DNA of 64,000 nucleotides from the human T2T-CHM13v2.0 reference genome, Homo sapiens, in the NCBI RefSeq assembly GCF_009914755.1, contig NC_060925.1, one strand, 5' to 3'. This document shows positions 1 to 2,509 of this stretch, in pieces. Made by a program: the position numbers and the translations under genes. Each line of letters begins with the position of its first letter. Position 1 is the first letter of the stretch. The notes below the pieces were generated by a model. That model was given only the letters and a program-made list of their open reading frames with translations, ran no database searches and was not told the DNA's origin.

Positions 1-697
1 TCATTTATTTTATGTATTAAATTAGACAAAGAAATAAATATGCAACTGGATAAAAACAATCACATTCTTATACTACCTGAACACACAGTAGTGGTAAAAA
101 AAAAAAATAAAATAATGAATTGTAAAATGGGCCCCAGGATTTAATGCAAACATCACCCTGTACAAGAAAAGTTTCAGGCTTCTAGCTTCACCGAATCTAG
201 TACTAAATGTGCTTCTTTATATTCCTCAGTGTCTTCCAAGTCTTTTTCACTTTCTAACATCTGTTGAAGATCCAAATATGCAGCTTCCAACCTGCGCTGG
301 CAATCTGGGATCATCATCTGGGATTCTTGTAGGATCTCTGCCTGCTTTTTAATGGCATAATTTTCACCATCTTCGGCTCTCATTTTTTCGATCTTTTCTT
401 CTTGTTATTTTGCTTCTTTTCCATACGTCAGTTTTTCTTTGACCGACCTGCAAACCTCTGATGGCTCTCTATTACCAAGCAATTCAACTTTTTCTTGTAA
501 TATCATGACTTTTCCCTTGCTTCTTTGGAGCACTTCCAGCATCACTAGTGGCACTCCGTATGGGTCTCGTGGTGTTATTTAAGATTTACATTCAAGGTTT
601 ACAAGATTGCACACTTCACCACACTAGTCTTGATCTTGGTTGGCCTCATGCAAGGGTTGGCCGTGGTCCCTTGAGCACTGCAAGAAGAAGGAGCAGA

Positions 698-700
<3 letters not shown>
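1..700 (-). pseudogene. TBCA: Processed pseudogene of tubulin-specific chaperone A (TBCA), with a 164-nt extra segment at the exon1/exon2 junction
   Basis: ORF 174-383 (MRAEDGENYAIKKQAEILQESQMMIPDCQRRLEAAYLDLQ...VLDSVKLEA) is the TBCA C-terminal part with no introns. 384-447 continues upstream as SVKEKLTYGKEAK*QEEKIEK with a premature TAA at 405-407. 612-664 encodes TANPCMRPTKIKTSVVK (TBCA MADPRVRQIKIKTGVVK) with ATG mutated to ACG at 664-662. The 3'UTR runs to an AATAAA at 9-4; the poly(A) tail would lie just outside the window. Confidence 0.96.
448..611 (-). mobile_element. Internal fragment of a Tigger2-like (TcMar-Tigger) DNA transposon encoding the transposase N-terminus, embedded in the TBCA retrocopy
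   Basis: Minus strand reads ...SATSDAGSAPKKQ/KVMILQEKVELL (one frameshift), a CENP-B/pogo-type N-terminal motif matching my recollection of the Tigger2 consensus. No terminal inverted repeats (TIRs) or TA TSD. Confidence 0.8.
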
Positions 701-988
<288 letters not shown>

Positions 989-2509
989 AATCGAAGGACA
1001 GGCAGAGACACCAGTTTCTTATTCAGGTCCTCATAGCAATTTGACCAGTTCTGGTCTTCTCAGGGGTCGTTTTTAAAGGGAATGGAAATATGTCCCTGCT
1101 TCGACCCTAAGCAACTACCCTTGACTTTGACTTTGGTGTCCAAAAGCTCCATGTTGATTTGTTAAGTAGGGCTGATTATGTCTCGCCTTCTTCAGGGACA
1201 GTGGTCCTCAAGGTTGTTTTGGCTTTCGGACAACTTGGATAGGACAAAAGGACTGTCCGCCTCCTTATCACCTCCTTCGCATTTGCCGTTCTTAATAGAA
1301 CCCCTTCTGAGATAGGGAGGCAGTTGTTTCTCCCGGCAACAGGATGCTAAGGGAGGGGTAGCAGAATTAATTGTATCTTCCCACCAGGAGGAAGGAACCA
1401 CAGTGCTGTCATTCTAAATGTTGGTATTGCGTCTCTGGGTCTAGCCTGCGTGTTGAGAGCCATCACCTGGAAGAGGAGGATCCTAAGCTGAGAGAGGGAA
1501 ATTCTTAAATCAGCTCATGCTGGACTCGTCTTACGTTGTTTTACCCTGAATCTGGAAAGCATAGCAGAGTCATGGGGTGGGACTGCCTGAAACGGCGGTC
1601 TAACCACTGCTGGTATAGAAACTTAGATCTTGCCCATCACCTTACCCTTGACCTTCCCTCTTCTTCCATAAACCGTCTGTGGGATGAGTGTGTGTTGTGC
1701 GTGATTCAGCTTACACCAGACTTGTCACCTGTCATTCAACAGGGTCTGTAACTGTTGCTTTAGTTTCAGAGGCACCCGTTTTTCTTGGGTGTTTGGAGGC
1801 GAGTCTGGAAGTATGTTTCAGGGAAGGGACCAGATATGTATTTCAAGGTTCAGCATGTTAAGTTGTGCTTGCTCTCCAGGCGCTCAGCTCAGCCCCCATT
1901 AAAAAGGCTGAACTGGAGAATTGTAACAACATACAGAGGGGTCCTGAGAGCCTGCCCCACACTGCGACCATGATGGTCTGTTACTGGAGAAGGTTTAAAA
2001 TGTAGCATGCAGTCTAAGCATGATTTTAACTCGAGGCAGTGGTGTGGTTTTAGCACCAAGCTAGAAGGAGATGGGTTATTAATCCTTTTGACATTCCCTT
2101 TGAATAGCATCATATTTCAATCCTGTTAAGCTGTGGGGCCGTTGTTTATCGGACTCCCTCCAAAAGCAGGACCTCTGCTGTGCTGAAGCTGCAAAACACT
2201 GCCCAGCTCTGTGCCTTTCGGTCGACAGTCGGCTTCAGCCTTCTCAGCTGACCCCTCCACCTCATCAGCTCTGAGATCAACTCAGGCAGCTCCCAGCTGC
2301 CTCAGCTCACCCATCTGTCACTGGCCAAGGAAGGGTCAATGGGCCTGGTGCCCTTTAGTTGGAATGTCGAGAAAAGGAAGAAGGAAAACTGCATCTAGAA
2401 AATACTTTTTTAAGTTGGAGGGTAAGGTAGTCAGGCATGCTGAAGAATCCAGGATTCTAAATGTGACTATCTCCATGCCTTCAGCTGTCTGTGTTGATCT
2501 CCTCAACTG

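What the first reader, a model, noticed from the sequence alone, without database searches (positions are those of the whole stretch)
448..611. TBCA retrocopy preserves a transposon-derived cassette exon spliced exactly between exon 1 and exon 2
Seen: on the minus strand the TBCA coding sequence runs 53 nt from the mutated start (664) to 612 (...GTG AAG TG). A foreign 164-nt block follows (TGCAATC...TTTGCAG), then TBCA resumes with no loss or duplication at 447 (G TCG GTC AAA GAA). The block has no TIRs, TA duplication, poly-A or TSD. From memory: TBCA intron 1 falls after coding nt 53, and the block matches the internal 5' part of Tigger2, where my recalled consensus has ...TTTAG immediately before TGCAAT, a natural splice acceptor. 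Inference: this is not an insertion into the pseudogene. It is a retro-copied alternatively spliced TBCA mRNA containing an exonised Tigger2 from intron 1, i.e. a fossil of an ancestral germline isoform.
Basis: partly seen in the sequence, partly recalled or inferred. Interest (0 to 1): 0.8.

Follow-up and report, generated by a model that had tools for sequence, protein, structure and literature searches.

The report
TBCA pseudogene preserving a transposon-derived exon
A dead retro-copy of the tubulin-folding gene TBCA carries, exactly between exon 1 and exon 2, a 164-base piece of an old Tigger-type transposon that still sits in TBCA's first intron, so it was copied from a rare spliced transcript that included that piece: a neat but not unprecedented case.

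Summary
On the minus strand, window 1-1010 is a full-length processed TBCA pseudogene with a target-site duplication, the parental poly(A) site and an A15 tail. A later Alu sits in its 5'UTR.

Window 448-611 lies exactly at the exon 1/exon 2 junction. That junction was confirmed on the parental gene on chr5 and on two other TBCA retrocopies.

The block comes from one particular transposon copy. This is a Tigger-type element of about 0.9 kb in TBCA intron 1, in sense orientation. Block and intron copy share a 13-nt tandem duplication, and the 23-mer across its junction occurs only at these two places in the genome. They also share two derived substitutions.

The predicted GT at the 3' end was not found. 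The last 25-28 nt align poorly to today's intron copy. Their last 11 nt match the family majority 10 of 11, ending where CT follows. How the 3' junction formed is therefore unresolved.

Verdict: a retro-copied, premature-stop ("poison") TBCA isoform with an exonised Tigger element, confidence about 0.85. This kind of fossil is already known, so interest is modest. RefSeq's TBCAP2 span stops at 448 and misses the block, exon 1 and the 5'UTR.

The parts
1011..1020 (-). Upstream copy of the retrocopy's target-site duplication (AAGAAACTGG). The downstream copy (AAGAAATTGG) lies just outside the window, at window -24..-35, directly after the A15 tail.
   Evidence: Read; 9 of 10 bases identical.
991..1010 (-). 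First 20 nt of the retro-copied TBCA 5'UTR, cut off from the rest by an Alu.
   Evidence: Local alignment to the parental 5'UTR, TCTCTGCCTGTCCTTC against TCTCCGCCCCTCCTTC.
698..990 (+). Alu element on the + strand, antisense to the pseudogene. It inserted into the pseudogene's 5'UTR after retroposition. Both flanks match the same stretch of parental 5'UTR, which is the Alu's own target duplication.
   Evidence: Window 695-990 matches about 25 Alu copies in the TBCA region at 74-84%. Flanks read.
665..697 (-). Rest of the TBCA 5'UTR.
   Evidence: Alignment to the parental sequence upstream of the ATG.
612..664 (-). TBCA exon 1 coding part, 53 nt; start codon decayed to ACG.
   Evidence: With the 5'UTR part: 78.2% identity, 18 transitions and 1 transversion, which looks like CpG decay.
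448..611 (-). The 164-nt block: an internal segment of the Tigger-type element of TBCA intron 1 (C5:78231629-78231779). Sub-parts: 577-602, a 13-nt tandem duplication shared with the intron copy; 476-611, well aligned (91.9%); 459-475, a scrambled stretch; 448-458, which matches the family majority GAGGTCTGCAG at 10 of 11.
342..447 (-). TBCA exon 2.
   Evidence: 90.7% identity to C5:78190834-78190940; the parental splice sites were read.
255..341 (-). TBCA exon 3.
   Evidence: 92.2% identity to the parental exon 3.
1..254 (-). TBCA exon 4 with stop codon and 3'UTR. It runs about 8 nt past the window edge to the parental poly(A) site (AATAAA plus 12 nt), followed by A15.
   Evidence: 88.1% identity to the parent. 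The alignment ends at the parental cleavage site and the A-run follows.

Best explanation
Window 1-1010 (minus strand) is an L1-type processed pseudogene of TBCA. It was reverse-transcribed from a minor TBCA mRNA in which part of a sense-oriented Tigger-type DNA transposon in intron 1 had been spliced in as a cassette exon between exons 1 and 2.

The exon used the transposon's latent acceptor, a T-rich tract followed by AG directly before TGCAAT. In both the parent and the pseudogene it puts a stop codon five codons into the insert. The source transcript was therefore non-productive, a likely target of nonsense-mediated decay.

Shown: the retrocopy hallmarks; the exact junction position; descent of the block from the intron-1 copy; the acceptor AG.

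Inferred: that splicing (rather than another joining process) made both junctions; that the transcript was present in germ-line cells; and an age of a few tens of millions of years.

Not resolved: the donor. The block's colinear end in the transposon is followed by CT, not GT.
For: 1. Retrocopy hallmarks. The exon 1/2, 2/3 and 3/4 junctions are intron-free. The parental poly(A) site is followed by A15. A 10-nt target duplication matches at 9 of 10.

2. Position. The block sits exactly between the last base of exon 1 and the first base of exon 2.

3. Source. The only genomic match covering the block from its first base lies in TBCA intron 1 on the TBCA strand. It is 26 kb downstream of exon 1 and 41 kb upstream of exon 2.

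4. Private shared characters. The 13-nt tandem duplication is in the block and the intron copy but in 0 of 28 other copies. The exact 23-mer occurs at 2 places genome-wide. Two shared derived substitutions are each present in 1 of 28 others.

5. Divergence. Block 476-611 against the intron copy gives K2P 0.087. The flanking exons give 0.102 and 0.082, and the 3'UTR part gives 0.132. This fits one copying event for all parts.

6. Acceptor. In the parent AG stands directly before the block's first base, with 15 pyrimidines among the 20 nt before it.

7. The block is internal to an element of about 0.9 kb that continues on both sides in the parent. The intron copy is therefore the donor of the sequence, not its recipient.

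8. Context from print. Sense-strand intronic Tigger elements carry cryptic splice sites and purine-rich enhancers whose use SAFB proteins suppress in somatic cells. Such sites are most used in testis (PMC10901741; abstract and passages read). The block is 37% A and 60% purine.
Against: 1. No canonical donor. After the colinear end the family majority reads CTGCAG|CTGCGG and the present intron copy reads CTGTGG|CTGCAT. The only consensus-like GT nearby (GAG|GTCTGT) lies 8 nt upstream.

2. The last 28 nt of the block align to the present intron copy no better than shuffles do: 2831 of 5000 shuffles reach the score. Against the family majority the fit is only modest: 129 of 5000. About 14-17 nt (window 459-475) look replaced.

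3. No transcript or junction data could be consulted.

4. No other primate genome was available, so the presence of the block in orthologous pseudogenes and the ancestral state of the donor are untested.

5. TBCA does not appear in the 5 supplementary files held for the SAFB paper.
Confidence: 0.85

Rival explanations
1. A Tigger-type transposon, or a fragment of one, inserted into an ordinary TBCA pseudogene after retroposition and happened to land at the former exon 1/2 junction.
For: The block belongs to a multi-copy DNA-transposon family.
Against: The block starts about 400 nt inside the element. It has no terminal inverted repeats, no TA duplication and no flanking repeat. It carries the private 13-nt duplication and two derived bases of the one copy that lies in TBCA intron 1. 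Landing at the exact junction base would be a chance of 1 in several hundred.
Confidence: 0.01
2. The retrocopy is chimeric. While copying mature TBCA mRNA, the L1 reverse transcriptase switched template to intron-1 RNA (pre-mRNA or lariat) and back again. No spliced exon ever existed.
For: The 3' junction has no GT donor. The family majority reads GCGGTTG a few bases past the block's end, and GCGGTTG is also the sequence of the mature exon 1/exon 2 junction. That offers microhomology for a switch.
Against: Two switches would have to restore the exact exon 1 end and exon 2 start. The 5' junction coincides with an AG preceded by a pyrimidine tract, as a spliceosomal acceptor would. A switch at GCGGTTG would leave 5 more nucleotides than are observed.
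Confidence: 0.05
3. The block was copied at the DNA level from the parental locus into the pseudogene, by gene conversion or repair synthesis.
For: None specific, only the shared sequence.
Against: In the parent the segment lies 26 kb and 41 kb away from the exons that flank it in the pseudogene. No flanking homology could have guided a conversion tract to the exact exon junction.
Confidence: 0.01

Closest known systems
Processed pseudogenes that record alternatively spliced transcripts ('genomic fossils'; Shemesh, Novik, Edelheit and Sorek, PNAS 2006)
   Same: A retrocopy whose exon composition differs from the main mRNA, read as a snapshot of a minor transcript of the parent gene.
   Different: I saw this paper only as an entry in two reference lists. 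It is not held, so its content is recalled. Here the extra exon is transposon-derived and carries a stop codon, and its source copy can be pinned down by a private duplication.
CDC14Bretro, a retrogene spawned by one particular splice variant of CDC14B (PMC2422853, abstract read)
   Same: A primate retrocopy derived from a specific, non-default splice isoform of its parent.
   Different: CDC14Bretro is a functional, selected gene. The present copy is dead: start codon lost, several stop codons, an Alu insertion. Its distinctive exon is non-coding.
Exonisation of sense-strand intronic Tigger and L1 elements, suppressed by SAFB proteins and relaxed in testis (PMC10901741; abstract and passages read)
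   Same: A sense-oriented intronic Tigger-type element, A- and purine-rich, with a cryptic splice acceptor inside the element. A germ-line setting is the plausible place of use.
   Different: That work describes present-day human cells, mostly with terminal exons and premature polyadenylation. Here an internal cassette is recorded only as a DNA fossil. TBCA is not named in the 5 supplementary files held.
Mutation-activated pseudoexon in a Tigger2a element of CFTR (listed in Table 2 of PMC7951965, passage read)
   Same: A Tigger2-group element supplies splice sites for a new exon in a host gene.
   Different: That is a disease allele with a newly created 5' splice site. I did not compare the sequences, so whether the same part of the element is used is unknown.

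Membership tests
L1-mediated processed pseudogene (retrocopy) | Parental introns are precisely absent. | tested here: met
   The exon 2/3 and 3/4 junctions, and the exon 1/block/exon 2 junctions, agree with the parental splice sites.
L1-mediated processed pseudogene (retrocopy) | A poly(A) tail at the parental polyadenylation site. | tested here: met
   AATAAA, then 12 nt, then A15. Similarity to the parent stops at that point.
L1-mediated processed pseudogene (retrocopy) | A flanking target-site duplication. | tested here: met
   AAGAAACTGG and AAGAAATTGG, 9 of 10 identical, directly before the 5'UTR and directly after the A-run.
Exonised transposon (cassette exon from an intronic element) | The source element lies in the right intron, on the gene's strand. 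| tested here: met
   C5:78231629-78231779, minus strand, inside the 67,248-nt intron 1. Private duplication shared with the block.
Exonised transposon (cassette exon from an intronic element) | AG, preceded by a pyrimidine tract, directly before the first exon base. | tested here: met
   gtattttttgtgtttAG|TGCAAT; 15 of the 20 preceding bases are pyrimidines.
Exonised transposon (cassette exon from an intronic element) | GT (or GC) directly after the last exon base. | tested here: not met
   The colinear end is followed by CT in both the intron copy and the family majority. The nearest plausible donor, GAG|GTCTGT, is 8 nt upstream. Only the present-day human sequence could be examined.
Exonised transposon (cassette exon from an intronic element) | Transcript evidence for the junctions. 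| not testable with these tools
   No transcript, junction or annotation data for chr5 were available. Literature searches for TBCA with Tigger and with cryptic exon gave nothing on this exon.
Tigger2 (pogo-type DNA transposon) | A multi-copy interspersed family with a pogo/CENP-B-type transposase N-terminus. | tested here: inconclusive
   691 candidates, 40 scored, at 83-91% identity. The longest open frame across the region (L006, 114 aa) matches Pfam CENP-B_N at E 2.8e-4 and 20.9 bits, just under the 21.2-bit cut-off.
Tigger2 (pogo-type DNA transposon) | Match to the curated Tigger2 consensus, including its terminal repeats. | not testable with these tools
   No repeat library was available. 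The element's 3' end in the parent reads ...GGGTCAACTG, which fits my recollection of the Tigger2 terminus, but that is recall only.

The most novel reading that the evidence does not exclude
The retrocopy may be the only surviving record of a lost TBCA poison exon. At the time of copying, the intron-1 Tigger element would have carried a working donor, for example a C-to-G change giving CAG|GT at the block's end, either as a segregating allele or as a lineage-specific state. The parental gene has since lost it. In favour: the intron copy differs from the family majority at 4 of the 12 positions around that boundary, against 7 of 131 upstream (Fisher 0.007, chosen after the fact). On this reading the pseudogene preserves a splice-activating variant that selection later removed, not a standing low-level isoform.
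Probability: 0.2. Interest if true: 0.5.

Novelty: new member of a known kind. Interest (0 to 1): 0.3.

Why it matters
This is a clean worked example. A private duplication ties the extra exon of a pseudogene to one particular transposon copy 26-41 kb away from the flanking exons. That removes the usual doubt between 'insertion into the pseudogene' and 'copied from an isoform'.

It has three practical uses.
- It corrects the annotated extent of TBCAP2. RefSeq stops at window 448, whereas the retrocopy runs to about 1010.
- It predicts testable junctions in TBCA.
- It fits recent work on Tigger exonisation being relaxed in testis.

It does not reveal a new mechanism. Pseudogenes as records of minor isoforms, and exonised transposons, are both established.

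Tried and rejected
1. A separate source for the last 25 nt (window 448-472), such as a second micro-exon. An ungapped scan of 80 kb around TBCA intron 1, both strands, gave at best 17 of 25 matches, one of them upstream of exon 1. A genome-wide pattern search with up to 3 mismatches found only the window itself and one 3-mismatch place on C6; I estimate about 0.4 such hits by chance. Rejected.

2. The tail as retained 3' end of intron 1. The parental intron ends ...ggcttttttatag, which is unlike the tail. Rejected.

3. An inversion, or a copy from nearby sequence, as the origin of the scrambled 14-17 nt (window 459-475). I compared by eye with the reverse complement of the parental segment and of a downstream stretch. 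I found only short resemblances, which I do not trust. Left unexplained.

4. Four ways to reconcile the 3' junction. None can be chosen from human sequence alone.
   a. A donor created by a variant at CAG|C, since lost.
   b. The donor GAG|GTCTG, followed by an 8-nt tandem duplication and 3 substitutions in the pseudogene.
   c. The weak family-majority donor GCG|GTTGCC, followed by a 5-nt deletion.
   d. A longer exon ending at AAG|GTGTTG or TTG|GTAAAC, followed by a deletion reaching exactly to exon 2.

5. Finding exon 1 with the genome search and a 103-nt query failed; only the window itself was returned. A local blastn on the fetched region found it.

7. Literature. TBCA with Tigger: 2 papers, both irrelevant. 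TBCA with cryptic exon: 4 papers; one lists a different, 58-nt SNP-dependent exon in TBCA. Tigger2 with exonization: 3 papers. Shemesh 2006 is not held.

Full report
WHAT IS THERE

Read on the minus strand, the left end of the window holds a TBCA cDNA-like sequence, in this order:
- 5'UTR, split by an Alu (window 698-990);
- 53 nt of exon 1 coding sequence, with the start decayed to ACG (664-612);
- a 164-nt foreign block (611-448);
- exon 2 (447-342), exon 3 (341-255), and exon 4 with the 3'UTR (254-1 and about 8 nt beyond the window edge).

Just outside the window the copy ends at the parental polyadenylation site: AATAAA, 12 nt, then A15. A 10-nt direct repeat brackets the whole, AAGAAACTGG at 1020-1011 and AAGAAATTGG after the A-run, 9 of 10 identical. 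This is a full-length L1-type processed pseudogene. It lies on chr1 inside a KAZN intron, on the opposite strand, according to the hub's gene table. RefSeq's TBCAP2 span (-15..448) covers only the part downstream of the block.

THE PARENT GENE

The held genome contains the window's assembly. The pseudogene sequence finds TBCA on C5, minus strand:
- exon 4 at 78173840-78174082, exon 3 at about 78175836-78175938, exon 2 at 78190834-78190942;
- exon 1 at about 78258191-78258275, found by local blastn on eight fetched 10-kb stretches.

Exon 1 ends ...GTGGTGAAGCG|GTAAGG, 53 nt after the ATG. Exon 2 starts ...tttttatag|GTTGGTC. Intron 1 is 67,248 nt long. The block therefore sits exactly at the exon 1/exon 2 junction.

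The two other TBCA retrocopies that cover the junction, on C23 and C4, have the plain junction. A third, partial copy on C5 at 158.9 Mb covers only the 3' part.

WHERE THE BLOCK CAME FROM

A genome search with the block returned 691 first-look candidates. Of these, 40 were scored, all at E below 1e-28. Thirty-eight of them cover only block positions 11-31 to 126-141, mostly from 22-24 (the other two are the window itself and the place named next). One place matches from position 1: C5:78231654-78231779, on the TBCA strand, inside intron 1.

I aligned the block, this intron copy and the 28 other best copies. The reason for the difference is a 13-nt unit that stands once in the family but twice in tandem in both the block and the intron copy. 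It is tandemly duplicated in 0 of the 28 others. The repeat finder sees the same tandem pair at window 577-602.

The exact 23-mer across the duplication junction, including a C-to-T change in the second unit, occurs at exactly two places in the 3.1-Gb genome: the window and the intron copy. With up to 3 mismatches there are 35 places, against 73 for the reversed control, which is chance level. One other family copy, on C7, shows an independent tandem.

In the in-register part, block and intron copy share two further derived bases, at window 584 and 526, each carried by 1 of 28 others. The block has 5 private changes. The intron copy has 3, plus a 12-nt deletion.

The element in intron 1 spans about 0.9 kb (roughly C5:78231290-78232180). 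It continues about 400 nt upstream and 330 nt downstream of the exonised part. The intron copy is therefore the source.

Divergence of block 476-611 from the intron copy is K2P 0.087 (91.9% over 123 columns). The comparable values are exon 2 at 0.102, exon 3 at 0.082 and exon 4 with the 3'UTR at 0.132. Exon 1 with the 5'UTR gives 0.283 from 18 transitions and 1 transversion, which looks like CpG decay. With neutral rates of 1-2 x 10^-9 per site per year (recalled), this means a few tens of millions of years.

THE 5' BOUNDARY

In the parent the block's first base (C5:78231779) is preceded by gtattttttgtgtttAG. Of the 20 bases before the AG, 15 are pyrimidines. This is what a spliceosomal acceptor looks like.

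THE 3' BOUNDARY IS NOT CLEAN

Up to ...GAATTGCTTG the block aligns well. The remaining 28 nt behave differently:
- Against today's intron copy they align no better than shuffled versions: 2831 of 5000 shuffles reach the score.
- Against the family majority the fit is modest: 129 of 5000.
- The last 11 nt match the family majority GAGGTCTGCAG at 10 of 11, at an offset one base from colinear (15 of 20000 shuffles reach this).
- The same 11 nt match the intron copy at 8 of 11 at the colinear offset (1858 of 20000).
- The 14-17 nt in between (window 459-475) look replaced.

The block most likely runs to the CTGCAG position of the element. What follows there is CTGCGG in the majority and CTGCAT in the intron copy, so there is no GT. 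The only consensus-like donor nearby is GAG|GTCTGT, 8 nt upstream.

I see four reconciliations. Each needs one extra event.
(a) A donor-creating variant at CAG|C that has since been lost.
(b) Use of GAG|GT, followed by an 8-nt tandem duplication and three substitutions in the pseudogene.
(c) Use of the weak GCG|GTTGCC of the majority, followed by a 5-nt deletion.
(d) A longer exon, followed by a deletion ending exactly at exon 2.

The intron copy differs from the majority at 4 of the 12 positions around this boundary, against 7 of 131 upstream (Fisher 0.007). I chose that comparison after seeing the data, so it is a lead only.

A separate origin of the tail was looked for and not found. The tail is not the end of intron 1.

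CONSEQUENCE FOR THE TRANSCRIPT

Continuing the TBCA frame, the insert gives a stop after four codons in the pseudogene (...VVKCAIL*) and in the parent (RAIM*). Its length is 164 nt, which is not a multiple of three. The source mRNA was a non-productive 'poison exon' form.

WHAT KIND OF ELEMENT

The longest open frame across the homologous region of another copy (L006, 114 aa) matches Pfam CENP-B_N at E 2.8e-4 and 20.9 bits, just below the 21.2-bit cut-off. That fits a pogo/Tigger-type transposase start. The element's end in the parent reads ...GGGTCAACTG.

COMPARISON WITH WHAT IS KNOWN

- Retrocopies that reflect particular splice variants are established. The abstract of PMC2422853 describes CDC14Bretro as spawned by one CDC14B variant. 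The 'genomic fossils' paper of Shemesh et al. 2006 treated this genome-wide, but I saw only its reference entry and recall its content.
- Exonisation of Tigger-group elements is known. A Tigger2a-based aberrant splice site in CFTR is listed in Table 2 of PMC7951965.
- PMC10901741 (abstract and passages) reports that SAFB proteins bind sense-strand intronic L1 and Tigger RNA. Their loss activates cryptic splice sites in these elements. Such sites are most used in testis, where SAFB is low in post-meiotic spermatids.
- The TBCA element is in sense orientation, and the block is 37% A and 60% purine. This offers a ready explanation for germ-line inclusion. That link is inference: TBCA is not named in the 5 supplementary files held for that paper.
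- A published SNP-dependent cryptic exon in TBCA (PMC8801146, Table 2) is 58 nt long. By my rough coordinate conversion, which rests on recalled hg38 gene coordinates, it lies about 19 kb away. It is a different exon.
- Searches for TBCA with Tigger and TBCA with cryptic exon found nothing on the present exon.

RIVALS

- Later transposition into the pseudogene is excluded. The block is internal to the element, has no terminal repeats or TA duplication, and carries the private marks of the intron-1 copy.
- Template switching by the reverse transcriptase would need two switches that restore both exon ends exactly. It would not explain the AG with its pyrimidine tract. I keep it at about 5% because the 3' junction lacks a donor.
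- A DNA-level patch has no homology to guide it.

VERDICT

Two points remain open: the donor, and whether the isoform still exists. This is a good, well-anchored example of a known kind. It is worth a small annotation fix and a junction look-up, and it is not a surprise to specialists.

Noticed in passing
window 698-990 (+ strand): An Alu inserted into the pseudogene's 5'UTR. Both of its flanks match the same stretch of parental 5'UTR, which is the Alu's own target duplication. Together with the block, this may explain why the annotated TBCAP2 span stops at 448.
   Followed up: partly
L051/L052 (G000:C7:98288001-98288036): Another copy of the same transposon family carries an independent tandem multiplication of the same 13-nt unit: two overlapping 2-mismatch hits 13 nt apart. 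The unit therefore seems prone to slippage. The exact 23-mer shared by the block and the TBCA intron copy is nevertheless unique to those two.
   Followed up: no
L007 1476-1500 (C5:78231629-78231653), the intron-1 element at the block's colinear 3' end: The parental copy differs from the family majority at 4 of 12 positions here, against 7 of 131 upstream. It also has a 12-nt deletion inside the exonised part. This could be erosion of a former donor or chance; the comparison was post hoc.
   Followed up: partly
TBCA intron 1, elsewhere (literature: PMC8801146, Table 2): A 58-nt cryptic exon in TBCA that depends on a common SNP (rs75503375) is in print. By length and by rough position it is not the Tigger-derived exon recorded here.
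   Followed up: partly
L032 (C23:32639774-32640295), L033 (C4:102224333-102224745), L035 (C5:158892456-158892610): Three further TBCA retrocopies or fragments. The C23 copy is 89% identical to this pseudogene over exons 2-4 and still has an intact ATG and the canonical exon 1/2 junction in the stretch I read.
   Followed up: partly
window about 96-123 (minus strand, 3'UTR): The T-run in the 3'UTR is 11 nt longer than in the parent. This is ordinary homopolymer expansion.
   Followed up: no
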